A stretch of 57,405 nt of DNA from a virus. Taxonomy: Duplodnaviria; Heunggongvirae; Uroviricota; Caudoviricetes. The DNA lies in the IMG/VR virus record IMGVR_UViG_648028025_000017; one strand, written 5' to 3'. The notes below the pieces were generated by a model. The model ran no database searches, was not told where the DNA came from, and saw nothing but the letters and a program-made list of their open reading frames with translations. A program made the translations under genes and the position numbers. Shown here one piece after another: positions 44,427 through 57,405 of the stretch; the first letter of the stretch is position 1, and every line of letters begins with the position of its first letter.

Positions 44427-46366
44427 GAGTCACCTCTGGTTGAGAGTTTACTCACTTAGTCCTGTGTCCACTATTGGTGGGTAAGATCAGATCAACGAAG
44501 AGAAGATCAGCATATATGCACTAGAAACCAAAATATCGAGCCAAGGCAATTGTTAACTTGCGTGGACAGATGCTCGTTATGTATTAAAATCCCATTGCTT
44601 AGTCACGAAGATAATGATCGTATGGCTTCCTTAAGGGCTGGTGAGACACGTTGATTAAGTGCTTCATTAGCCCAGTCGGATTGCACGGGTATTCTACGCA
44701 ATATCACTGTGTTTAAAGCAGCAAACAAACGATGCAGTAAATGTATAGAACCGGTCGCGATAGCTGTATCCACCCACTGGTCCGCATAGAGCCATGGGGC
44801 TGAAAATAAATCAGCCATCGCCTGAGTAGCAACTTCAATAGACGCTTTTTCTAGGCAAAGAACATCACCCTGATCGCCAAAATTATGCTCAAAGTAAGGC
44901 AATCCTTCTATATTCGTGCGAATTAGAGGAAATGGGCAGCGCCCAATGCTCAGTAAAATATAGGCGTCTATACGCTGATCATCGTCACCCACCTCTGCTG
45001 ACGGCAGTTTCGCTAGTTGCCCGAGTATCATCCAACTGGTTGATTTAGAAATGACCTTTGGGATTTGATCCTCTAAATTCACCAGAACACTCTTTGCATC
45101 ATCCCCGTGTTTAGAAATCCACGCTAATCCATCCTCAATCTTTAGATTGACTTGTTGGTTGTCTGGCATGGCTAAAGTAAACAATCCGTTTTTTATAGGT
45201 TCTTTATATGGCTCAATGCTGAGAAGGCCCTGAATAATTCCAAAGCTGAAATATCTCTCTTTAGCTGCCATACGGCGTATGGCTTGAGCACCGATCATAT
45301 CTCCAAGATAAGTGGCGTCTAGCCGTTCGCCAAGCCAAGCCCCGGCGTCTTGAGGGTCTTGTTCTGCCCGTAAAACCAGTTCATCACAAACAGCATCCGA
45401 CAGTTCCAGAAGGTAAGCTGCGGGAACTGTCGGCACCACAACATCTTCCCATCCTGAAAGGCGAAAAATACGAACTGCCCCCATATGTTTTAACTCATTC
45501 ACTACACCACGAGCTTCGTCAGAAAGTGCGTCATACCGCACGACAAATCCATTCGCTTTAGCAAACATTAATTCTACTGAGTGGGAGTTTGTGTCAGCTA
45601 GTGCGCAGCGTGCAAGAACCCGATAATAACGAAGAAGATCATACTGACTCTCATAGCTCTTTTGCGCAGCATCTATAAGTTCCATACCGGGTGATGGAGG
45701 AAGATAGGCGATAAGATCCGTTTTCTGGTATTGATGATTGCGCACAATGTCATCATAAATAGTGCGAAGAACCCAAGGCGAGCGGTAGTCATCGGCGTAT
45801 TCTGCTCCCTGTTGAAAAACTATCCGCTGGTCCGAGAGAATCTGTTGCGCCAGCTTAAATTCATCTAGGGACATAGGCGATGTTTTAAATACCTTCGACC
45901 GGCTACCAATTGCAGACGGAGTTCGTCCGTTTGGATTTTTCAGTAACGCGTTGGCATGATAGGTCGTCAGAACAACCACCAGCCTGTTGCCAAAACGTAT
46001 ACCCGCAAGTTCCTCAAGATCAGTAGCCATTTGGGAGCCTGGTTCAACGTCGTCGATAGCAAGCATAAGCGATGGACCTTCAGTGCAGTTAGACATTCGT
46101 CTTAACCAGTTACGTGCATCATTTGAGGTTAAATTCCATTCAAATTCAGCTGCAAAAAGATTGGCCAGAGCCTGAAATAGTCCTGGTCCGGAACCTCGTA
46201 ACATCAGGACAGCCAAAAGATCGCTACTTTCCGTTTTTAGCGAAATTTCACGGAGGCAACTGCTTTTTCCGCTTTGTGCATCACCCTCAATGATAGTGAA
46301 AGCTGTACCCATTGAACCGCCCCGGGAATCCTGGAGACCAAACTCCCTGAGAAAGAGGTAAACAGG

Positions 46367-47580: not shown

Positions 47581-48919
47581 GTTCACAGATAAAACACTCT
47601 CCAGGAAAACCGGGGCGGTTCACATCACAGCAGATTCAATTACAAGAGACGTGATTTTGCGAGGAAAAAGTAGGTTGTTGGCAAATGGATGTTCTGAATG
47701 CCCAGGCTGATCAGTTATATCAATCAGCAGCCGGGCTGTTTCTTCTCGCACAGCTGGCACCCAAGCATTAGTTTCTCGCCCCATCAAGGCTTCAATAGCC
47801 CAGCGCATGTCAGCCGCCGCCAACTTTGCAGAATTGGCGAGCATCTTGTTTACCGCTGCCGAGGCATCCTGTCCACCCGACCACTGTTGTCCATTACTTG
47901 AGTCATAAACGCGCGTATCTTTACCGTTCGTAACTACAACGAGAGGCGGACGTGGTGTTAACTGGTTAGCGTAGCTTTGAGCCTGTTCATAATCATCATG
48001 GGTCAGTGTCAGGTCTTCACGTTTCAGTTCAATAACCGCAAGTGGTCTCTCCCGATGAAAGATCAAAACATCCGCTCGCCCGTATTTTTTCCAGTGTGCG
48101 GCGCTATCTATTTTGTAAGTTCCATGGCCTAGCCGAACGGTAAAATGGCGCTGTTCGATAAGATCTTCGCGAGGAATGTTAGGAAATGCTATGTTTAGTG
48201 CTGAAGTAAGCCGGCTTTCTAGCTCGGCTTCAGTTCGAACGAGTGGAGAGCCCGTTTTTGATTGCATACTTTTCATGACAAAGTATCCTCAGATATTAGT
48301 CATTGGCTAAGTTTTTATTTCACTTACTACCTTTCCAGATTAATGCGAAGACGCATAGCATTGGATTAACGGATGTGAAATGGATTATTGACAAGCAAAG
48401 TAACTTTTTCCGCATAACTATCAATTGATTAGCTGAAGAAAGGGAATATGATTTAGTTCACTCAGGTTTCTCCAGCACGATGTGCAGATGCTAAAGCCAC
48501 GATTAATTCTAAAGCAGATTAATATAACCCTGAAACAGGCAGAGCTGGAAACGCCTGTATCGGAAGTATGCCGCATGACCGCCCCCGATAACTCACACCG
48601 AATGCCAATAGGAATGTCAGCCCCTCGCTCATAGCAGACCTTCGGGCCTGGCAGCTTAGTGCCAAGAACACTCCCCAGTGGCCTATCGGCAAGTGTAAGC
48701 GTACGAATATCGCCTCCGTGCTACACAGTAGACGACTACATTTTCGACGCATGAGCAAATCGTGGCTTTAGTTGTCTAAAACCAGTGCTTCAACACTTTT
48801 TTTTCACCAAACAACGCATCGTAGAAGCACTAGTTGGATTCCACAGGCTTACGTAAACAAATAGCGCTAACGGCTAAGCTGGTCCATTAGACGCTCAATC
48901 ATCCTCGCAAGAGGTATAG

Positions 48920-49936
48920 TTACTCGATGCCCAGAACAAATGACATTAACAAATCTAGCTTTATTTTCATGTCTGCAGTTGCCGAAGCCGCATTAACCTG
49001 CGGCAAGGCAAGCCATCTGTTTACGGCATCGGAGTTGAATCTCTGCTGCCTTAGGAACGAAGATACCGACGTTTCCCAGGAAAAGATTTCACCCCCACAA
49101 AGTTCGACGGGCTGCTGAGAGCAGGCTCGCTGAATAGTCATTCCCAAACCGACGTAGCGGAGAAGCTCACGTCGCACATTCTCATCTTTTTGCATGACTG
49201 GTGCATCCAGTTTCGGTTTCGGTCCAAAGTACACTCCGGTAGTACCTGGTTGTAATGTCGGGTCACTGGAAAAATAAACCGGAACTCCCATCAATTTAAA
49301 TGCCGCTGTCAAAATTTCATAACTAATGTCTGATCGACTCCAACGGCCCATGTGGGGTGGTACTTTTGGCAAACCGACCAGATCATCGCCACGGCTTACA
49401 ATCGATACCCCCTCAACTGGCACGGATGGTTGCATTCTGAATACAGCGTCAGAATCGATTTCCCAGCCAGCTTCGCTTAACAATCGCAAAAAATTACCAG
49501 CAGCCACGCACGATGATTCACTCCACTCAACACAACCGATGCGCAGCTTGTCCCGCTGACCGAACTGTCCTGTTCGAAATAATTCGAGGTATCTGTCGCG
49601 ATTGGAACTATTAACGGCATATGCATCAATCACAGTAGGCGGTACAGGTTTACTTGCAGATTCAGGATTTTGTTGAAGCAAATCTGGGCTTATGAAAAAC
49701 ACTATAGCGAAGATCGCCACTGCGCCAGATGCTCTTAACCACCCATTAAATTTTACTTCAAGGAAACCAGGCAGAACTGCACCAATACATCCGGCAGCCA
49801 GAACCAGAACTATTCGGTAAACTATATATTGATAAGGTGTGGGATTGGGGGTTGTGATAGTAGTAATGAGTATGGCAACTATCGCCACAACCGCAAAACC
49901 ATACCTAATGAACTTGTCTGTCCTTACACTGCTCAT
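48920..49936 (-). CDS. Membrane protein of unknown function (N-terminal TM helices + about 240-aa soluble domain)
   Basis: 338 aa; hydrophobic segments AVVAIVAILITTI, IVLVLAAGCIGAVLPGFL, AVAIFAIVFFI. Confidence 0.6.
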   Translation of the reverse strand: MSSVRTDKFIRYGFAVVAIVAILITTITTPNPTPYQYIVYRIVLVLAAGCIGAVLPGFLEVKFNGWLRASGAVAIFAIVFFISPDLLQQNPESASKPVPPTVIDAYAVNSSNRDRYLELFRTGQFGQRDKLRIGCVEWSESSCVAAGNFLRLLSEAGWEIDSDAVFRMQPSVPVEGVSIVSRGDDLVGLPKVPPHMGRWSRSDISYEILTAAFKLMGVPVYFSSDPTLQPGTTGVYFGPKPKLDAPVMQKDENVRRELLRYVGLGMTIQRACSQQPVELCGGEIFSWETSVSSFLRQQRFNSDAVNRWLALPQVNAASATADMKIKLDLLMSFVLGIE

Positions 49937-50408
49937 TTTAATTTTGACACCTGAATCAAGTCCATAAGTCGAAAATCCCGCATTAAACTGCTCCCCAATG
50001 ATTAATACAGCTTTATACGCGTAATGAGGCTATTGGCGTTGGTGATGAGTGTAACTGTCCATTCCTCGCTCAGAGCAACCTTCTGCTCCAAGAGTCAGTC
50101 TACAGTGTGCAAAAAACAGACGTTGATCACAATATCGAGTTAATCATTCGGCCGTTTATCACTCCCATTGAAAAATTTCTCAGTATCCAATATACCAATG
50201 TTGAGGGCTTCCCTCTTACATCTCAAAAGGATAACTATCATGGGTCTTAAACCTGGTCCAAAACCAATTGCTAAATCGACAGGAAAACCAGATCAACGCC
50301 GACGAGATAATAAAGATACTCCTGGCAACACTCCGGGACTAAAGCCAAGTAAGTCGTAACCGGCTCATTTAAACCGTCTGGTCTGTTTCCTCCGGCTCTA
50401 CAAAAATA

Positions 50409-51086
50409 ATGTCCATCATTTTTAATGGACACTATCGTATGAAACACCGGACCTGGATCACTGAAGCTTTACGTCTTCACTTTGAAGAACATTTACCCCG
50501 GGTTGTGGCCGGGCGTCGCCTGGGTGTACCAAAATCAACAGTTTGTAGTATGTTCGTGCGCTTTCGGAGAGCTGGCCTTTCGTGGCCTTTGCCCGCAGGC
50601 ATGTCGGAGCAGGAACTTGATGCCTGCCTTTACGGACAATTTTCCACGGTACCAGTCGTACGTCCTGAAAGCACCGTTATATCCGAAGCCCCCGTGGTAA
50701 AAAAACGTCCCCGGCGGCCCAACTTCCCTTATGAGTTTAAAATCGCCTTAGTGGAGCAGTCACTGCAGCCCGGAGCCTGTGTGGCGCAGATCGCCCGGGA
50801 AAACGGAATCAACGATAACCTGCTCTTCAACTGGCGCCATCAATACCGGAAAGGTGGCCTGCTGCCTTCCGGAAAAAATATGCCGGCACTGCTTCCCGTG
50901 ACGTTAACGCCGGAGCCGGATAATAAAATCCCGGCCCCCGCACAGGAACCAGAGCAGATAAATACACCGTCCGACAGTCTGTGTTGTGAGCTGGTTCTGC
51001 CGGCCGGAACTCTCAGGCTTAAAGGTAAACTGACGCCGGCGTTATTACAGACACTTATCCGCGAAATAAAAGGGAGCAGCCACTGA
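50409..51086 (+). CDS. IS66-family accessory protein TnpA (start uncertain)
   Basis: HTH segments incl. IARENGINDNLLFNWRHQYRKGG. Confidence 0.7.
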   Translation: MSIIFNGHYRMKHRTWITEALRLHFEEHLPRVVAGRRLGVPKSTVCSMFVRFRRAGLSWPLPAGMSEQELDACLYGQFSTVPVVRPESTVISEAPVVKKRPRRPNFPYEFKIALVEQSLQPGACVAQIARENGINDNLLFNWRHQYRKGGLLPSGKNMPALLPVTLTPEPDNKIPAPAQEPEQINTPSDSLCCELVLPAGTLRLKGKLTPALLQTLIREIKGSSH

Positions 51087-51433
51087 TGATATCTCTCCCT
51101 GCAGGTTCGCGTATCTGGCTGGTTGCAGGTATCACCGATATGCGAAATGGCTTTAACGGCCTGGCATCAAAAGTTCAGAACGTCCTGAAGGATGACCCGT
51201 TCTCCGGACACCTGTTCATCTTCCGCGGACGCCGGGGTGACCAGATAAAAGTGTTGTGGGCTGACAGTGACGGACTGTGCCTCTTCACCAAACGCCTGGA
51301 GCGGGGCCGCTTCGTCTGGCCAGTCACCCGTGACGGCAAGGTGCACCTTACTCCGGCTCAGTTATCCATGCTTCTTGAAGGTATCAACTGGAAGCACCCG
51401 AAACGAACGGAACGCGCTGGAATCCGCATATAA
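51086..51433 (+). CDS. IS66-family TnpB
   Basis: 115 aa; RIWLVAGITDMRNGFNGLA typical of IS66 Orf2. Confidence 0.85.
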   Translation: MISLPAGSRIWLVAGITDMRNGFNGLASKVQNVLKDDPFSGHLFIFRGRRGDQIKVLWADSDGLCLFTKRLERGRFVWPVTRDGKVHLTPAQLSMLLEGINWKHPKRTERAGIRI

Positions 51434-51452
51434 CCCGTTGTAAAGTGAGGAT

Positions 51453-53024
51453 ATGGACACCTCACTTGCTCATGAGAACGCCCGCCTGCGGGCACTGTTG
51501 CAGACGCAACAGGACACCATCCGCCAGATGGCTGAATACAACCGCCTGCTCTCACAGCGGGTGGCGGCTTATGCTTCCGAAATCAACCGGCTGAAGGCGC
51601 TGGTTGCGAAACTGCAACGTATGCAGTTCGGTAAAAGCTCAGAAAAACTTCGTGCAAAAACCGAACGGCAGATACAGGAAGCACAGGAGCGAATCAGCGC
51701 ACTTCAGGAAGAAATGGCGGAAACGCTGGGTGAGCAATATGACCCGGTACTGCCATCCGCCCTGCGCCAGTCTTCAGCCCGTAAACCGTTACCGGCCTCA
51801 CTTCCCCGTGAAACCCGGGTTATCCGGCCGGAAGAGGAATGCTGTCCTGCCTGTGGTGGTGAACTCAGTTCTCTGGGATGTGATGTGTCAGAGCAACTGG
51901 AGCTTATCAGCAGCGCCTTTAAGGTTATCGAAACACAACGTCCGAAACAGGCCTGTTGCCGGTGCGACCATATCGTGCAGGCACCAGTACCTTCAAAACC
52001 CATTGCACGCAGTTATGCCGGAGCGGGGCTTCTGGCCCATGTTGTCACCGGGAAATATGCAGACCATCTGCCGTTATACCGCCAGTCAGAAATATACCGT
52101 CGTCAGGGAGTGGAGCTGAGCCGTGCCACACTGGGGCGCTGGACAGGTGCTGTTGCTGAACTGCTGGAGCCGCTGTATGACGTCCTGCGCCAGTATGTGC
52201 TGATGCCCGGTAAAGTCCATGCTGATGATATCCCCGTCCCGGTCCAGGAGCCGGGCAGCGGTAAAACCCGGACAGCCCGGCTGTGGGTCTACGTCCGTGA
52301 TGACCGTAACGCCGGTTCACAGATGCCCCCGGCGGTCTGGTTCGCGTACAGTCCGGACCGGAAAGGTATCCATCCACAAAATCACCTGGCCGGTTACAGC
52401 GGTGTGCTTCAGGCCGATGCTTACGGTGGTTACCGGGCGTTATACGAATCCGGCAGAATAACGGAAGCCGCGTGTATGGCTCATGCCCGGAGAAAAATCC
52501 ACGATGTGCATGCAAGAGCGCCCACCTACATCACCACGGAAGCCCTGCAGCGTATCGGTGAACTGTATGCCATCGAGGCAGAGGTCCGGGGCTGTTCAGC
52601 AGAACAGCGTCTGGCGGCAAGAAAAGCCAGAGCCGCGCCACTGATGCAGTCACTGTATGACTGGATACAGCAACAGATGAAAACACTGTCGCGTCACTCA
52701 GATACGGCAAAAGCGTTCGCATACCTGCTGAAACAGTGGGATGCACTGAACGTGTACTGCAGTAATGGCTGGGTGGAAATCGACAACAACATCGCAGAGA
52801 ACGCCTTACGGGGAGTGGCCGTAGGCCGGAAAAACTGGATGTTCGCGGGTTCCGACAGCGGTGGTGAACATGCGGCGGTGTTGTACTCGCTGATCGGCAC
52901 ATGCCGTCTGAACAATGTGGAGCCAGAAAAGTGGCTGCGTTACGTCATTGAACATATCCAGGACTGGCCGGCAAACCGGGTACGCGATCTGTTGCCCTGG
53001 AAAGTTGATCTGAGCTCTCAGTAA
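51453..53024 (+). CDS. IS66-family transposase TnpC
   Basis: 523 aa; leucine-zipper N-terminus, CPACGG zinc motif, DDE-like core. Confidence 0.85.
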
Positions 53025-53054
53025 ATATCAATACGGTTCTGACGAGTCGCTTAC

Positions 53055-54193
53055 GGTTATCCGGACTGTACGTGAAAAGCATGCCTGTACTCAGTGCGAT
53101 GCCATCGTGCAGGCCCCCGCGCCTTCACGGCCCATCGAGCGGGGTATCGCAGGACCGGGGCTGCTGGCCCGCGTGCTGATCTCAAAGTATGCAGAGCACA
53201 CCCCGCTGTACCGCCAGTCTGAAATGTACGGCCGCCAGGGCGTGGAGCTGAGTCGTTCACTGCTGTCGGGCTGGGTGGATGCATGCTGCCGGCTACTGTC
53301 ACCGCTGGAAGAAGCGCTTCAGGACTATGTGCTGACTGACGGTAAGCTCCATGCTGATGACACGCCTGTCCCGGTGCTGTTGCCAGGCAATAAGAAAACG
53401 AAGACCGGGCGGTTATGGACCTACGTTCGTGACGACCGTAACGCCGGGTCAACGCTGGCGCCGGCGGTGTTGTTCGCTTACAGCCCGGACAGAAAAGGCA
53501 TCCATCCGCAGACCCATCTTGCGGGGTTCAGTGGTGTACTGCAGGCGGATGCATACGCCGGGTTCAACGAGCTGTACCGGGATGGCCGGATAACGGAAGC
53601 CGCCTGTTGGGCTCACGCCCGCCGTAAAATCCACGATGTGCACGTTCGCACCCCGTCAGCCCTGACGGAGGAAGCGCTGAAACGGATCGGCGAACTGTAC
53701 GCCATCGAGGCAGAGATAAGGGGAATGACGGCGGAGCAGCGCCTTGCCGAACGTCAGTTGAAAACGAAACCGCTGCTGAAATCCCTGGAAAGCTGGCTGC
53801 GTGAAAAGATGAAAACCCTGTCGCGACACTCAGAACTGGCGAAAGCGTTCGCATACGCCCTGAACCAGTGGCCGGCGCTGACGTACTATGCAGATGATGG
53901 CTGGGCTGAGGCGGACAATAACATCGCTGAAAATGCGTTGCGGATGGTCAGTCTGGGCCGCAAAAACTACCTGTTCTTCGGTTCGGATCATGGAGGAGAG
54001 CGGGGAGCGCTGCTGTACAGCCTGATCGGGACGTGCAAACTGAACGGAGTGGAGCCAGAAAGCTACCTCCGCTATGTCCTTGACGTCATAGCCGACTGGC
54101 CGATAAACCGGGTCGGCGAACTGCTCCCCTGGCGCGTAGCACTGCCGACTGAATAACACATCCCCGTCAATACGGTTCTTGCTGCACGCTTAC
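53055..54193 (+). mobile_element. 5'-truncated remnant of a second, divergent IS66-family element
   Basis: Begins mid-tnpC directly after the first copy's right end; own right end ...CGCTTAC at 54187-54193. Confidence 0.7.
53107..54156 (+). pseudogene. Truncated IS66-family tnpC (lacks N-terminal third)
   Basis: Collinear with C-terminal two-thirds of the TnpC at 51453-53024. Confidence 0.8.
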
Positions 54194-54596
54194 CAGTAAC
54201 TTCAGCTACCGTCGTTTCATCTCTCCCACGAACCGGAGCCGCAACTTGTTGCATCACAGGGCTGACAAGTGAACTGAAATCCGCACCTTAATATTCTGAC
54301 TGGCTGCGTACATTCATTGCATGAAGCGGCCGGAGCGGCTGAGCTGAAGGTCCGTTGTGAGCGAGAAGCGGAAGTCCGAAATGGTGCTTATTACTATAGG
54401 GGAGTGATCGTCTATCGGGGTGGGGTCAGTCTAATTAACGACCCTGGAGACGTCCAGATTATCCTTAGCGATTCAAACCTTTTTACGAGACCCAAAGATT
54501 TGATACTCAAAATCTCAGACATAAACCATCTAAACATACGGCTTACTATCATGATGATAGGGGAACGGCTAGCAAAGGGTCAAATTATCTTGATAA

Positions 54597-55331
54597 CTAA
54601 TAAAAGTTCTTTACATCCATAAAATCCATGATGTATTTATCTAATCCTTTGCGATTGAAAAAACCGAAACTTTCAAAGTCTTTTATTATTTTCCAATCAC
54701 TAAATACGTATGCCAAACATACCAAATGAAGAAATTTCACAGGCATAGTATAATTTGCTATTTCGTAATATCTTTCTTTGTGGTTTTCTGGGCAAGATTC
54801 ATTTGTGAATTTAAATAGAATATAAAAACTACGAACCGCAGAAAAGAGAGCCATAGAGGATTCATTATCAAAAATAGAAAATTGTTTGCATAATTCTTCT
54901 GCATTTTTTGACTTACATGAGTTTATCATGTAACTCTCTAAATAGGTTACCGCATCTGAGGCTGAGTAGTTTTTTTTATTTCTACCAGTTATTCTGAGGG
55001 CATCAAACTCTCTTCTAGATACTTCAGCGAGGCTATAAAACGATGATTCAAAAGAGCGCAAGTCATCAATTTCTTTTTGTCTTTCTGAAACCTCATGCAT
55101 GTGCAAATTTTGTTTAATAATGCTGATGTTAGCCTCTTTTTGTAAGTTTATTGATTTAATTAACATAATCATTGTAAAAAATGTCAAAATGGGGTTGGTT
55201 ACGCCGCCAACGAAATCACCAAATGTTCCCCATTCAGACTTATCAATTGGAAAACCATTTAACGGATCGAAATTGAAGAAATAAATCAACCATGTAACTG
55301 ATATAACTAAAAAGGCAACATACTTTATCAT
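54597..55331 (-). CDS. Hypothetical 2-TM membrane protein, downstream gene of AT-rich two-gene operon
   Basis: 244 aa; TM segments VAFLVISVTWLIYFF and VGGVTNPILTFFTMIMLI; ATG 1 nt after upstream stop. Confidence 0.65.
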   Translation of the reverse strand: MIKYVAFLVISVTWLIYFFNFDPLNGFPIDKSEWGTFGDFVGGVTNPILTFFTMIMLIKSINLQKEANISIIKQNLHMHEVSERQKEIDDLRSFESSFYSLAEVSRREFDALRITGRNKKNYSASDAVTYLESYMINSCKSKNAEELCKQFSIFDNESSMALFSAVRSFYILFKFTNESCPENHKERYYEIANYTMPVKFLHLVCLAYVFSDWKIIKDFESFGFFNRKGLDKYIMDFMDVKNFY

Positions 55332-55332
55332 A

Positions 55333-56151
55333 TCAATCCGTTATAACTCGGTGAAGACTATATTTTTTAATGACACCAAGAAAGTTTCTGATTGATGTCA
55401 CCTCTAGCCGTACACGAGTAAAATCACCATTATCTGTGTTGACGTCTAAGTTTCTAGATAGCCAGCGTTTTTGATCTGCTGGAAAATCTCTCCAAAGATA
55501 TGAAGGTTCAAAACTTACAGACTCAGAATCTTCCTCAAGAATGAGCCTTCCCGTCCCCGTTAGCCGATTAAATCTTGTAATAGAAGCTTCAATAATGATC
55601 CTTTCATCATCGGCACGTTCAACAATTAGATTTTCAAGGGTCGTGTGATCATACCGAGCAAGATTTGTCCTTCTCCGTTTCAGCTCAACAGTATAATTTT
55701 GTTCTTCTATGGGCTTATGAAGCTTCAATAGTGGGCCATAAAGCCTCTTCATTAATGAACTATAATCTGACTCAAGTTCTTTAACAATTCTAGCAGCCCT
55801 TTTATATGTGAAATTATAAGGTGTTAATAATGGTCTTGTAAGATAATAAGACATAACATCTAGAAATGCCCCCTCTCCGATTGCGCCATAGTTTCTACGT
55901 TGTTCCTCACCTGTGATCTTGAGCATGAAACGTTGTCTAAACGACCCTTCATAACTGGTACGAAAAGATGCGGTTATGCCTTCGATTGATGGGATTTTAG
56001 TAACTACTTCGCGATTTAGAATCGTATTAGTGAGGACTGTAACTATCTCTGACGTGCCTTCAAGTGCTTTTGACCCATAGTAAAAATCAAGCTCTGTGAA
56101 TCTTTCTTCTCCATCACTTACTACCATTTCCATGGGAACATGAATTTCCAT
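55333..56151 (-). CDS. Hypothetical soluble protein, upstream gene of AT-rich two-gene operon
   Basis: 272-aa ORF, AT-rich, no recognisable motif. Confidence 0.65.
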   Translation of the reverse strand: MEIHVPMEMVVSDGEERFTELDFYYGSKALEGTSEIVTVLTNTILNREVVTKIPSIEGITASFRTSYEGSFRQRFMLKITGEEQRRNYGAIGEGAFLDVMSYYLTRPLLTPYNFTYKRAARIVKELESDYSSLMKRLYGPLLKLHKPIEEQNYTVELKRRRTNLARYDHTTLENLIVERADDERIIIEASITRFNRLTGTGRLILEEDSESVSFEPSYLWRDFPADQKRWLSRNLDVNTDNGDFTRVRLEVTSIRNFLGVIKKYSLHRVITD

Positions 56152-56493
56152 TCTCTAATTCCAAATAAAAACCATGGGTTTAATATGTCCTAATTGATTT
56201 GGTTTTGGCAACTATTTTTGATTGTTTTTCAAGAATAATTCGAAAGCTATTAATTAATGGCTGGAACTAATAGGTTCCAGTTTTCAACTAATCCAGTGAC
56301 CTGCTCCCCGCTGATCAACTCAGACTGTTGTTAGCAACTTACGCTCCTGGTACGGAGCGGGCATTGATTACCCGCTCCGTTCACGTTCCGCCTGGAAGTT
56401 CTGCAATTTATGTCTATCGGCTATTGAAAACCTTCCGGTCCTTCCCAATATCGAAACTGGCACCTTTGCCAGATAACAAAGAGATACGGGAAC

Positions 56494-56814
56494 ATGATGT
56501 ACGTCTACAGAAGACCTCCAAATCAGCTCCTTTCCATTTCTCGTTTGAAGCAGTATTTGTTGCATGAGGTGGAATCAAATCAACACATCATGAGACAGTG
56601 GGAATCTGCCAGAACGGCACTTCGAAACATCCGTAACAAAGGGCATGATCCAGACACCGCCTCCTGGGTTTCACTTAAAAATGATCCCCGAGTCTTCACG
56701 AATGGCGCAGATGAAAAGCATGGGTTCATTTTTGTTGACGACGACGATCAATCAGTCCTTGTTGTGGCCTCCTGGGTGATAGATGAGTACGGTTCCCCCC
56801 TCACTACATATTAA
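56494..56814 (+). CDS. Hypothetical protein (start uncertain)
   Basis: 106-aa ORF with acidic patch FIFVDDDDQ; no clear RBS. Confidence 0.4.
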   Translation: MMYVYRRPPNQLLSISRLKQYLLHEVESNQHIMRQWESARTALRNIRNKGHDPDTASWVSLKNDPRVFTNGADEKHGFIFVDDDDQSVLVVASWVIDEYGSPLTTY

Positions 56815-56931
56815 TCCCTGTACCTGGACAGAAGAGTTTTCTGTCCACAACTACCAATAGCTTTACATAATGTGTGCATCTAACTTCAATAAGTTACTTC
56901 ATTACCAATAATGTCTAAAAAGGAAACGCGC

Positions 56932-57405
56932 ATGGATATTGATACGCTGGGTGGCCAGGAACTTCGGGATAAGATTTTTGCTGGGCTCAAAATATACGAG
57001 GGTAAACCCTTCATCGAACGGTTCGGTCTGTTTATGGGCAAGGCACAGTTGCTAGAGTTTGGCCTAAAAAAAATTCTTGTTTCTTTTCCGGGATACAACC
57101 TTGATGAAGAAAAATTAGAGAGGCTGACATTAGGCCAGACCCGCGTTGAGCTTAAAAAGCTGGGGCTGCGCACGGACTATAATGCTTACCTGAAGTCATT
57201 CAAAGATCAGCGCAATACGATGGCTCACGAGTTCCTTGCTAATTTTGCGGTCACACAGCAGCTTTTAGACGGAGCTGCACTTATTCGCACATTTGAGCGT
57301 GAGTTAGACCATGCCTGTTACGCGGTGGAGCAGTTGATCATCCTTTTCGACTTCATCAACGGTGCCGGTGACGTAACCGCCTGGCTTGAGCCTACTGCCC
57401 CCTGA
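56932..57405 (+). CDS. Hypothetical protein
   Basis: Start MDIDTLGG with AAGGAA RBS; ends with TGA at window end. Confidence 0.55.
   Translation: MDIDTLGGQELRDKIFAGLKIYEGKPFIERFGLFMGKAQLLEFGLKKILVSFPGYNLDEEKLERLTLGQTRVELKKLGLRTDYNAYLKSFKDQRNTMAHEFLANFAVTQQLLDGAALIRTFERELDHACYAVEQLIILFDFINGAGDVTAWLEPTAP

What the first reader, a model, noticed from the sequence alone, without database searches (positions are those of the whole stretch)
54597..56151. AT-rich two-gene operon (soluble 272-aa protein + 2-TM 244-aa protein) of unknown function, embedded in IS debris
Two minus-strand genes are tightly coupled: the stop of the upstream gene lies one nucleotide from the ATG of the downstream gene. 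Their base composition is far more AT-rich than the flanking IS66 copies. The upstream protein has no motif I can place. The downstream protein has two N-terminal transmembrane helices followed by a soluble domain. A cytoplasmic component paired with a small membrane-spanning partner, in an IS-rich island next to a prophage, is the typical layout of abortive-infection modules, but I cannot match either protein to a described family, so this is my leading candidate for an undescribed system.
Basis: partly seen in the sequence, partly recalled or inferred. Interest (0 to 1): 0.75.

Follow-up and report, generated by a model that had tools for sequence, protein, structure and literature searches.

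The report
AbiC-like membrane protein with OB-fold partner
This is a real, conserved two-gene cassette carried by prophages, phage satellites and small plasmids: a divergent relative of the lactococcal abortive-infection membrane protein AbiC that always travels with a soluble partner of unknown function. It is most likely an undescribed two-component variant of a known kind of anti-phage system, but nobody has tested it.

Summary
Two intact minus-strand genes, A (55333-56151, 272 aa) and B (54597-55331, 244 aa), are separated by one nucleotide. They are AT-rich (GC 0.39 and 0.31, against 0.55-0.63 in the IS66 copies) and under strong purifying selection (dN/dS about 0.05).

That is only half right.
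- B is a full-length but divergent member of the AbiC/putAbiC abortive-infection superfamily (hhalign 99.7 %, E 2e-26). It falls below the Pfam and PADLOC thresholds.
- A belongs to Pfam DUF7946+DUF7947. Its C-terminal domain is an OB-fold.

A and B are adjacent, in the same order and nearly always translationally coupled, in every one of more than 25 loci examined. These include lambdoid prophage edges (the icd-int slot that holds lit in e14), a PICI-like satellite, IncX1 plasmids and a 4.6-kb ColE1-type plasmid where the pair is the only cargo. Stand-alone AbiC-type genes lack A. The most distant A relatives pair instead with unrelated 4-TM or 1-TM membrane proteins.

Best reading: a Rex-like abortive-infection or exclusion module in which A senses and the membrane protein is the effector. 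No named system matched. There are no phenotype data. The O26 copy is a relic of a prophage edge cut by IS66.

The parts
55333..56151 (-). Gene A: 272-aa cytoplasmic protein. The N-terminal domain is DUF7946-type (about residues 1-180; alpha/beta, no solved relative). The C-terminal domain is DUF7947-type, an OB-fold (about residues 185-270). Superfamily-wide motifs are LDFYxGxKAxEGxSE (res 21-35) and TRFNxxTGxGR (res 192-202, on the OB beta1-beta2 loop).
54597..55331 (-). Gene B: 244-aa inner-membrane protein of the AbiC superfamily. It has TM1 (res 4-20), a short acidic periplasmic loop, and TM2 (res 37-58) carrying the invariant motif W34-G-x-F-G-D39-F-x-G-G-x-x-N46-P47. TM2 continues as a long cytoplasmic stalk helix (to res ~110, with the FExxFY motif at 94-99), followed by a helical C-terminal domain.
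   Evidence: ORF. Hydropathy. Charge distribution. AF2 pLDDT 86.7. phrog_8999, 2e-39. Homology to PF16872-positive P0069, E 2.7e-10. Vibrio putAbiC protein matches the B-only profile, E 4e-15. hhalign to stand-alone AbiC-type profile, 99.7 %, E 2e-26, B res 1-232. dN/dS 0.04.
55329..55335 (-). A/B junction, TGA-T-ATG (1-nt spacer), implying translational coupling. In other loci the spacer is -8 to +3 nt, with one of +11.
56152..56286 (-). Native 5' region retained with the cassette (135 bp, homologous to the Citrobacter prophage copy). It contains a -35/-10-like pair, TTGCCA-18-CATATT (56211-56182), conserved in Citrobacter.
   Evidence: blastn block. Alignment. Promoter scan: (site count in the region not above shuffles, so this is weak evidence).
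56260..56279 (-). Hairpin CTGGAAC-N6-GTTCCAG at the outer edge of the conserved block. The Citrobacter and Kosakonia copies form the hairpin with different sequences. It is probably the icd-side terminator or attachment-site edge of the ancestral prophage.
   Evidence: read from the alignment; not folded
54481..54564 (+). Remnant of the 3' end of a lambdoid tyrosine integrase (aa 339-367 of the 376-aa Citrobacter Int), convergent with B. It marks the cassette as a fragment of a prophage edge with the order icd, A, B, int, truncated by IS66.
   Evidence: tblastn and blastn. Citrobacter and Kosakonia gene order.
53107..54156 (+). Context: truncated ISEc22-type IS66 transposase that bounds the cassette on the left. 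A complete ISCro1-type IS66 lies further left, 50.4-53.0 kb.

Best explanation
A-B is a self-contained, horizontally mobile two-gene phage-exclusion (abortive-infection type) module.

B is the effector. It is an inner-membrane AbiC-superfamily protein with N-in/C-in topology. Its second transmembrane helix carries an invariant polar, glycine-rich motif (WGxFGDFxGGxxNP) and continues into a long cytoplasmic stalk.

A is a cytoplasmic sensor or adaptor. Its conserved OB-fold loop (TRFNxxTGxGR) binds a phage-derived cue, most likely single-stranded nucleic acid or a nucleoprotein or protein made early in infection. A then switches B on.

Activated B compromises membrane integrity or energisation. 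Late phage protein synthesis and assembly stop, which is the phenotype recorded for lactococcal AbiC. The logic is that of lambda RexA/RexB.

Shown here: both genes are real and constrained; B is homologous to AbiC; A has an OB-fold and belongs to DUF7946/7947; the pair is strictly linked, coupled and co-diverging; it resides in Abi/defence cargo slots; A's membrane partner is swappable.

Inferred: the anti-phage function; the direction of signalling (A to B); the nature of the ligand; and membrane damage as the output.

In this O26 window the cassette is an intact relic of a prophage edge. It keeps its 5' region, but its expression is unknown.

Confidence breakdown: about 0.6 that this is an anti-phage or anti-MGE exclusion module, and about 0.4 for the specific order in which A senses and B executes.
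For: 1. Linkage.
- An A homologue sits immediately upstream of a B homologue in all paired loci examined.
- These are 7 genomic or metagenomic contexts, 3 plasmids, a Klebsiella phage, and 5/5 plus 10/10 viral contigs.
- Spacers are mostly -8 to +3 nt.
- Pairwise identities of A and B correlate, r = 0.93.

2. B is AbiC-type. hhalign to PF16872-positive, stand-alone proteins gives 99.7 %, E 2e-26, over B residues 1-232. Those stand-alone proteins hit PADLOC AbiP. AbiC and AbiP are experimentally established single-gene Abi proteins with 2 and 1 TM helices (PMC13064643).

3. Cargo slots.
- The pair lies between icd and int of e14-like prophages, the slot that holds lit in K-12 e14.
- It lies at the cargo end of a PICI-like satellite and after the O/P replication genes of a lambdoid phage.
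- Its neighbours include Mrr and a CAP12-TIR gene; Shedu SduA_C, DndB and HipA_2; RelE/ParE pairs; and a DpnII-type REase gene plus an Abi family gene on IncX1.
- It is the sole cargo of a 4,652-bp ColRNAI plasmid.

4. A is the constant part. The DUF7946/7947 superfamily has 268 clusters, all about 260-285 aa and never fused. Its members pair with AbiC-like 2-TM proteins, or in the most distant branch with unrelated 4-TM or 1-TM proteins. A constant sensor with swappable membrane effectors is typical of defence systems.

5. Ligand-binding site. The nearly invariant residues of the superfamily (N195, G201, R202, F214) lie on the OB beta1-L12-beta2/beta3 face, the usual ligand-binding face.

6. 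Topology. B's C-terminal domain is in the cytoplasm with A.

7. Functional precedent. In RexABpp, a DNA-binding RexA activates membrane damage by RexB (PMC12894663).
Against: - No phenotype exists for this pair or for any close relative.
- PADLOC 2.0, NCBIfam 2026 and Pfam give no significant hit to either O26 protein.
- The only lactococcal 'AbiC-like' protein (38 % identical to AbiC) that was tested gave no resistance (PMC11381338).
- The mechanism of AbiC itself is unknown. Pore formation is assumed, not shown.
- The direction of signalling cannot be deduced from sequence.
- No A:B complex model could be computed.
- The O26 copy is a relic beside IS debris and may be silent. The promoter-like sites are no more frequent than in shuffled sequence.
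Confidence: 0.5

Rival explanations
1. Reversed, Kiwa-like logic. The membrane protein B senses phage attachment or DNA injection at the envelope. It then releases or activates A, whose OB-fold binds incoming phage nucleic acid and blocks replication or late transcription, without killing the cell.
For: - A has a nucleic-acid-type OB-fold and no membrane segment.
- AbiC's recorded phenotype is reduced capsid-protein production with no effect on DNA replication. That would fit a block of late expression.
- Kiwa is a precedent: a membrane sensor (KwaA) plus a soluble effector (KwaB) (PMC11785009).
Against: - Stand-alone AbiC and AbiP work without any A-like protein, so B-type proteins are not mere sensors.
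- A's membrane partners belong to at least three unrelated families. That is easier to explain as swappable effectors than as three unrelated sensors of one membrane event.
- A has no recognisable enzymatic or DNA-clamping domain.
- Neither protein hits the PADLOC Kiwa models.
Confidence: 0.15
2. Addiction (toxin-antitoxin-like) module whose main role is to stabilise the mobile element. B is a membrane toxin and A is its protein antitoxin. Any anti-phage effect is secondary.
For: - The two genes are tightly coupled, with the presumed neutraliser upstream.
- The pair sits between two RelE/ParE pairs on an Acinetobacter plasmid.
- It is the sole cargo of a tiny ColE1-type plasmid.
- It occurs on prophages and satellites that would benefit from retention.
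Against: - At 272 aa, A is far larger than typical antitoxins.
- A keeps a conserved OB ligand-binding loop across the whole superfamily.
- Stand-alone AbiC-type genes exist without any A, so B-type proteins are not constitutively toxic.
- Toxin-antitoxin and Abi functions are not mutually exclusive.
Confidence: 0.12
3. A function that serves the phage or plasmid itself and is not defensive. Examples are control of lysis timing (holin/antiholin-like), membrane remodelling, or entry exclusion of close relatives at the DNA-injection step only.
For: - Both proteins have PHROG families of unknown function.
- The pair occurs in bona fide temperate phage genomes.
- B is a small membrane protein.
Against: - The pair is not in the lysis cassette. 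It occupies lysogenic-conversion (moron) slots next to int or after O/P.
- It also occurs on non-phage plasmids and on a satellite.
- B is homologous to proven Abi proteins.
Confidence: 0.08
4. In this particular O26 locus the cassette is a silent, decaying passenger of a degraded prophage edge and has no current function.
For: - int is reduced to about 30 codons and abuts IS66 debris.
- The cassette is not at icd. It lies in an argW/csc-side island whose own integrase is a pseudogene.
- There is no evidence of expression.
- All 82 E. coli copies are >=99 % identical, so selection within E. coli cannot be measured.
Against: - Both ORFs are intact and identical in the listed genomes, and >=99 % identical in all 82.
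- The 135-bp 5' region with its conserved promoter-like elements is retained.
- dN/dS against the nearest relatives is about 0.05.
Confidence: 0.1

Closest known systems
AbiC / AbiP (lactococcal abortive-infection proteins; Pfam PF16872 putAbiC; PADLOC AbiP)
   Same: - B shares the N-terminal transmembrane hairpin and the invariant WGxFGDFxGGxxNP motif.
- It shares the FExxF(F/Y) stalk motif and the helical C-terminal domain.
- Profile-profile homology spans essentially the whole protein.
- Both are carried on mobile elements.
   Different: - AbiC and AbiP are single-gene systems of 285-345 aa. B is shorter (231-259 aa) and in every case examined is preceded by, and coupled to, the DUF7946/7947 protein A.
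- B does not reach the Pfam PF16872 or PADLOC AbiP thresholds, even at E <= 1-10.
Lambda RexA/RexB and RexAB-type systems (e.g. P. putida RexABpp)
   Same: - Both are prophage-borne two-gene operons with a ~270-aa soluble protein upstream of a small membrane protein.
- The proposed logic is the same: a soluble nucleic-acid-binding sensor activates a membrane effector that damages the membrane.
   Different: - RexB has 4 TM helices and no cytoplasmic domain. B has 2 TM helices plus a stalk and a helical domain.
Kiwa (KwaA/KwaB)
   Same: Both are two-gene modules that combine a membrane protein with a soluble protein, and both are carried in defence islands.
   Different: - Gene order is reversed.
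- KwaA has 4 TM helices and KwaB is DUF4868. Neither O26 protein hits a PADLOC Kiwa model.
- In Kiwa the membrane protein is the sensor.
Pfam DUF7946 + DUF7947 proteins
   Same: - A is a divergent member: 28/28 and 23/28 close relatives give collinear sub-threshold hits.
- More distant relatives pass the threshold (39.4 bits against a gathering score of 27; best 6e-33).
   Different: - These are uncharacterised Pfam families, and no paper in the searched library mentions them.
- The O26 protein itself scores only 14-15 bits.
Lit of the e14 element
   Same: Both occupy the equivalent cargo slot between icd/attL and int of an icd-integrating lambdoid prophage.
   Different: Lit is an unrelated single-gene zinc peptidase that cleaves EF-Tu (my own knowledge). 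There is no homology.

Membership tests
AbiC / putAbiC superfamily (for B) | N-terminal transmembrane helices (two in AbiC) | tested here: met
   Kyte-Doolittle peaks at res ~10 and ~49. AF2 helices 2-20 and 31-110. Charge distribution indicates N-in/C-in topology. AbiC has 2 TM helices according to PMC13064643.
AbiC / putAbiC superfamily (for B) | Significant match to Pfam PF16872 (gathering score 22 bits) or to the PADLOC AbiP/AbiC model | tested here: not met
   No PF16872 hit for B or for any of 39 close relatives, even at E <= 10. No PADLOC hit for the O26, L019 or L020 B proteins. Control: the stand-alone proteins L021 and P0069 hit both.
AbiC / putAbiC superfamily (for B) | Homology to PF16872-positive proteins along the whole length, including the WGxFGDFxGGxxNP and FExxFF motifs | tested here: met
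   phmmer to P0069, E 2.7e-10 in 5.8 billion sequences. B-only profile against the Vibrio putAbiC protein, E 4e-15. hhalign 99.7 %, E 2e-26, 224 columns. Motifs aligned.
AbiC / putAbiC superfamily (for B) | Acts as a single-gene system | tested here: not met
   Every full-length B-type gene with upstream DNA available has A directly upstream. Distant stand-alone AbiC-type genes have no A within 3 kb.
AbiC / putAbiC superfamily (for B) | Confers abortive phage resistance | not testable with these tools
   Needs plaque and efficiency-of-centre-of-infection assays.
Pfam DUF7946 + DUF7947 (for A) | Match to both Pfam models at the gathering score (27 bits each), in N-to-C order | tested here: inconclusive
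   O26 A scores 14 and 15 bits, below threshold but collinear. All 28 and 23 of 28 close relatives hit weakly. 84 and 79 of 115 superfamily representatives recovered with the A profile hit, best 5.8e-33 and 7.2e-14. The A-like protein of locus L016 passes at 39.4 bits.
OB-fold (for the C-terminal domain of A) | Five-stranded barrel with beta1-beta2-beta3-alpha-beta4-beta5 topology and structural similarity to known OB domains | tested here: met
   [not shown]
RexA/RexB | RexA fold (PDB 8TWQ) for the soluble protein; 4-TM RexB-type membrane protein | tested here: not met
   [not shown]
Any system in PADLOC-DB 2.0 / NCBIfam 20.0 | Significant HMM match of either protein | tested here: not met
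   No hit at E <= 1 for A or B.

The most novel reading that the evidence does not exclude
DUF7946/DUF7947 proteins are a previously unrecognised family of small OB-fold infection sensors or adaptors. They plug into at least three unrelated classes of membrane effector: AbiC-like 2-TM, a 4-TM family and a 1-TM family. Together these would form a new family of two-gene defence systems spread by prophages, satellites and small plasmids. The same finding would give the first handle on how the 30-year-old AbiC/AbiP effectors are triggered.
Probability: 0.35. Interest if true: 0.7.

Novelty: new variant of a known kind. Interest (0 to 1): 0.55.

Why it matters
AbiC and AbiP were among the first abortive-infection genes cloned, yet how they work is still unknown.

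This branch of the superfamily has handed part of its function to a separate soluble protein with a conserved ligand-binding loop. That separates a putative sensing component from the membrane component, and makes both genetically tractable in E. coli.

The broader pattern is a constant DUF7946/7947 protein with swappable membrane partners. It defines a compact candidate defence family of about 1.55 kb that current annotation tools (PADLOC 2.0, NCBIfam, Pfam thresholds) miss.

The pair occurs in pathogenic O26:H11 E. coli, in IncX1 resistance-type plasmids and in Klebsiella plasmids and phages. This is relevant to phage therapy and to typing.

If the pair gives no protection, the result is still useful. 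It would show that location in a lit-type cargo slot together with AbiC homology does not predict defence.

Tried and rejected
- Direct family scans of both O26 proteins in Pfam, PADLOC and NCBIfam gave nothing significant. Only the PHROG families of unknown function matched.
- PDB sequence searches found nothing with four profiles: A1, A2, A5 and A4.
- The afdb50 fold library was unavailable, so there was no AFDB comparison. The N-terminal domain of A stays unassigned; the Foldseek hits to MoaC and insulin-degrading enzyme have low probability.
- The viral-contig scan with the close A alignment found nothing. The genome-contig scan gave one truncated hit, in Mixta. The broad alignment A5 was too diverse for pattern search; this was solved by using sub-alignments A6 and A7.
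- I tested whether the 1-TM or 4-TM alternative partners are remote AbiP/AbiC relatives. hhalign rejected this, with probability about 1 %, though those alignments were shallow.
- I tested whether A is RexA-like. It is not.
- The promoter and terminator scan found sites no more frequent than in shuffles, and no convincing terminator after B.
- Literature searches for DUF7946, DUF7947, PF25678, PF25679, the two WP accessions and the PHROG ids returned no paper. The DefensePredictor supplements do not contain the accessions, but those files were truncated when stored. The domain-centric NAR 2026 paper mentions neither AbiC nor these DUFs. The Brenes and Laub prophage screen is not in the library.
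Full report
**1. The observation**

The window is E. coli O26:H11 chromosome. It is 100 % identical to strain 11368, and the 2-kb locus occurs once in 82 of 5426 complete E. coli genomes, always at >=99 % identity.

- The two minus-strand ORFs are as described: A at 55333-56151 (272 aa) and B at 54597-55331 (244 aa). They are joined as TGA-T-ATG.
- GC is 0.39 for A and 0.31 for B, against 0.55-0.63 in the adjacent IS66 copies.
- B has two N-terminal hydrophobic helices. A has none.
- Both are real genes. dN/dS against the Citrobacter orthologues is 0.050 and 0.040.
- PGAP starts A six codons later. The longer start is supported by conservation of the first residues and by an AAGGAG Shine-Dalgarno at the equivalent position in Kosakonia.

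**2. What the locus is in O26**

- The cassette lies in the variable arm of a CP4-type island. The gene order is: integrase pseudogene, IS3, an HsdR-N-only gene, IS66, then the pair, then a DUF4365 gene, YeeP, Ag43, an antirestriction gene and YeeU. A TorI-type prophage is next door.
- blastn shows that window 56286-54502 is collinear (78 % identity) with a Citrobacter segment ordered icd, A, B, int. The match runs from 135 bp upstream of A to about 95 bp into the 3' end of a lambdoid integrase. tblastn finds that integrase remnant at 54481-54564 (+).
- So the O26 cassette is a relic of a prophage edge, cut by IS66 just beyond B. It is not a gene pair sitting inside IS debris.

**3. Protein B**

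- Direct Pfam, PADLOC and NCBIfam scans are empty.
- B nevertheless hits one PF16872 (putAbiC) protein, P0069, at E 2.7e-10 in 5.8 billion sequences.
- tblastn finds distant plasmid relatives that PGAP calls 'putative phage abortive infection protein'.
- A stand-alone Vibrio protein passes PF16872 at 52.7 bits. It also matches a profile built only from paired B proteins, E 4e-15.
- hhalign of the paired-B profile against nine stand-alone AbiC-type proteins gives 99.7 %, E 2e-26, over B residues 1-232.
- The shared hallmarks are the motif W-G-x-F-G-D-F/Y-x-G-G-x-x-N-P at the start of TM2 and an F-E-x-x-F-F/Y motif in the stalk.
- The charge distribution places the C-terminal domain in the cytoplasm.
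- Lactococcal AbiC (2 TM) and AbiP (1 TM) are grouped as AbiC/P. They are single-gene systems of unknown mechanism. AbiC lowers capsid-protein production, and AbiP binds RNA and ssDNA (PMC13064643).

**4. Protein A**

- All 28 close relatives give weak, collinear hits to DUF7946, and 23 of 28 also hit DUF7947.
- An exhaustive profile search of 1.84 billion representatives finds only 268 clusters at E <= 1e-3. Nearly all are 260-285 aa and none is fused to another domain.
- Of 115 full-length representatives, 84 hit DUF7946 and 79 hit DUF7947, best 6e-33 and 7e-14.
- The nearly invariant residues of the superfamily (N195, G201, R202, F214, within TRFNxxTGxGR...F) sit on the beta1-beta2 loop and beta3, the usual OB binding face.
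- The N-terminal ~180 residues have no solved relative.
- No paper in the library mentions these DUFs or the accessions.

**5. Linkage**

- A is immediately upstream of B in Citrobacter, Kosakonia and related metagenomic contigs, two Pseudomonas lineages, Aeromonas, a chromosomal locus and a compost contig.
- The same holds on an Acinetobacter plasmid, a Salmonella Typhi IncX1 plasmid and a 4,652-bp ColRNAI Klebsiella plasmid on which the pair is the only cargo.
- It also holds in Klebsiella phage Kp4865-4, just after the O/P replication genes, and in 5/5 plus 10/10 IMG/VR contigs.
- Spacers are -8 to +3 nt, with one of +11.
- Identities of A and B to the O26 proteins fall together (88/81, 64/61, 44/50 ... 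25/32 %). Across 55 pairwise comparisons r = 0.93; the comparisons are not phylogenetically independent.
- Eleven distant AbiC-type genes in viral contigs (262-527 aa) have no A-like ORF within 3 kb and no consistent partner. The same is true of the Vibrio and P0069 proteins.

**6. A swappable partner**

- In the most distant DUF7946/7947 sub-group, the coupled downstream gene is not AbiC-like.
- Four loci have a ~242-aa protein with four predicted TM segments. Two have a ~180-aa 1-TM protein. One has an 89-aa 2-TM protein. Two have what appear to be tail genes after a larger gap.
- hhalign finds no relation between these partners and AbiC-type proteins, probability about 1 %.
- The soluble protein is therefore the constant element, and the membrane protein is exchangeable.

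**7. Context**

- In Citrobacter and Kosakonia the pair lies between icd (attL) and int/xis of lambdoid prophages. In K-12's e14 that slot holds ymfD, ymfE and lit, the classic 'cell death peptidase'.
- Elsewhere it is the terminal cargo of a satellite-like element that encodes an integrase, a DUF3987 primase, an S78 protease and a capsid protein.
- It also lies beside Mrr and a CAP12-TIR gene; Shedu SduA_C, DndB and HipA_2; HNH and FRG genes; RelE/ParE pairs; or a DpnII-type REase-domain gene and an Abi family gene.
- In O26 its neighbours include an HsdR-N-only protein, a DUF4365 protein that hits a PADLOC Aga-type REase model, and a weak HEPN candidate.

**8. Mechanism**

I commit to a Rex-like model. 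A is a cytoplasmic OB-fold sensor or adaptor that recognises an infection cue and activates the AbiC-type membrane effector B. B then disrupts membrane function and aborts the infection.

- The strongest arguments are B's homology to proven Abi proteins, the obligate coupling, the constant-A/variable-membrane-partner pattern, the conserved OB binding loop, the cytoplasmic location of B's C-domain, and the cargo slots.
- The anti-phage role, the direction of signalling, the ligand and the membrane output are all inferred.
- I put about 0.6 on 'anti-phage or anti-MGE exclusion module' and about 0.4 on the specific A-to-B order.
- The rivals are a Kiwa-like reversal (PMC11785009), an addiction module, a phage-serving membrane function, and silence of the O26 relic.

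**9. Comparison and novelty**

- B is a member of the AbiC superfamily by homology. It fails the curated thresholds and fails the 'single-gene' property.
- A is a member of an uncharacterised Pfam DUF pair.
- The pair works like RexAB but is unrelated to it.
- Nothing in PADLOC 2.0, NCBIfam 20.0 or the searchable literature names the combination. I could not check newer DefenseFinder or PADLOC releases or papers not held in the library.
- I therefore rate it a new variant of a known kind: a two-component AbiC-type module. It is of moderate interest because no phenotype is known.

Noticed in passing
window 54481-54564 (+): A roughly 30-codon remnant of the C-terminus of a lambdoid tyrosine integrase, convergent with gene B. 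It shows the cassette came from the int-proximal edge of an icd-type prophage and was truncated by the IS66 insertions.
   Followed up: yes
window 56260-56279 (-): Hairpin CTGGAAC-N6-GTTCCAG at the outer edge of the conserved block. The Citrobacter and Kosakonia copies form a hairpin at the same place with different sequences (compensatory changes). It may be the icd terminator or the att-site edge.
   Followed up: partly
window 44603-46312 (-), 47620-48276 (-), 48920-49936 (-): Three more island genes. A 569-aa and a 338-aa hypothetical protein have no Pfam or PADLOC hit. A 218-aa protein consists only of a type I HsdR N-terminal (PD-(D/E)XK-like) domain. All lie between IS3 and IS66 copies and are further candidate defence genes.
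   Followed up: partly
L001 18307-20296 (just beyond the right end of the window; NC_013361.1 3322070-3324059): A DUF4365 protein (284 aa) hits the PADLOC model Aga_REase-PNTD1-PNTD2 (5e-12). The adjacent 332-aa hypothetical protein has a weak HEPN_Cthe2314 hit (0.005). This may be another two-gene defence candidate next to the A-B cassette.
   Followed up: partly
window 56494-56814 (+) and 56911-57405 (+): A 106-aa ORF not annotated by PGAP, and a 157/164-aa hypothetical gene that runs to the window end. Neither has a significant family hit.
   Followed up: partly
window 50400-54156: A complete ISCro1-type IS66 (tnpA, tnpB and a 523-aa transposase at 51453-53024) is followed directly by an N-terminally truncated ISEc22-type IS66 transposase (53107-54156). 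One IS66 has inserted into, or recombined with, another.
   Followed up: no
L040-L048 (IMG/VR viral contigs): The most distant DUF7946/7947 proteins are coupled to unrelated membrane proteins: a conserved 4-TM ~242-aa family in L041-L044 and a 1-TM ~180-aa family in L045 and L047. In L046 and L048 the next genes look like tail genes and no partner was identified.
   Followed up: partly
L060 = NZ_CP142969.1 (pKP1906522_4), 280-1835: A 4,652-bp ColRNAI plasmid of K. pneumoniae carries an A-like (276 aa) plus B-like (242 aa) pair as its only cargo, besides Rop and an HTH gene. Near-identical pairs appear to sit on about 15 IncX1-size (38-51 kb) E. coli and Salmonella plasmids. Only pTy004_02 was inspected.
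   Followed up: partly
AJ512679.1 (phage P2-EC45), 358-645: The 'putative lysogenic conversion protein' of a P2-like phage hot spot has a B/AbiC-like N-terminal region (tblastn 2e-4). This suggests AbiC-type genes also occupy P2 cargo slots.
   Followed up: no
L018 2-2437: The stand-alone putAbiC protein P0069 directly abuts (0-nt gap) an Eco57I/TaqI-type RM methylase gene on a Rep3 plasmid contig. This is a possible RM-AbiC operon.
   Followed up: no
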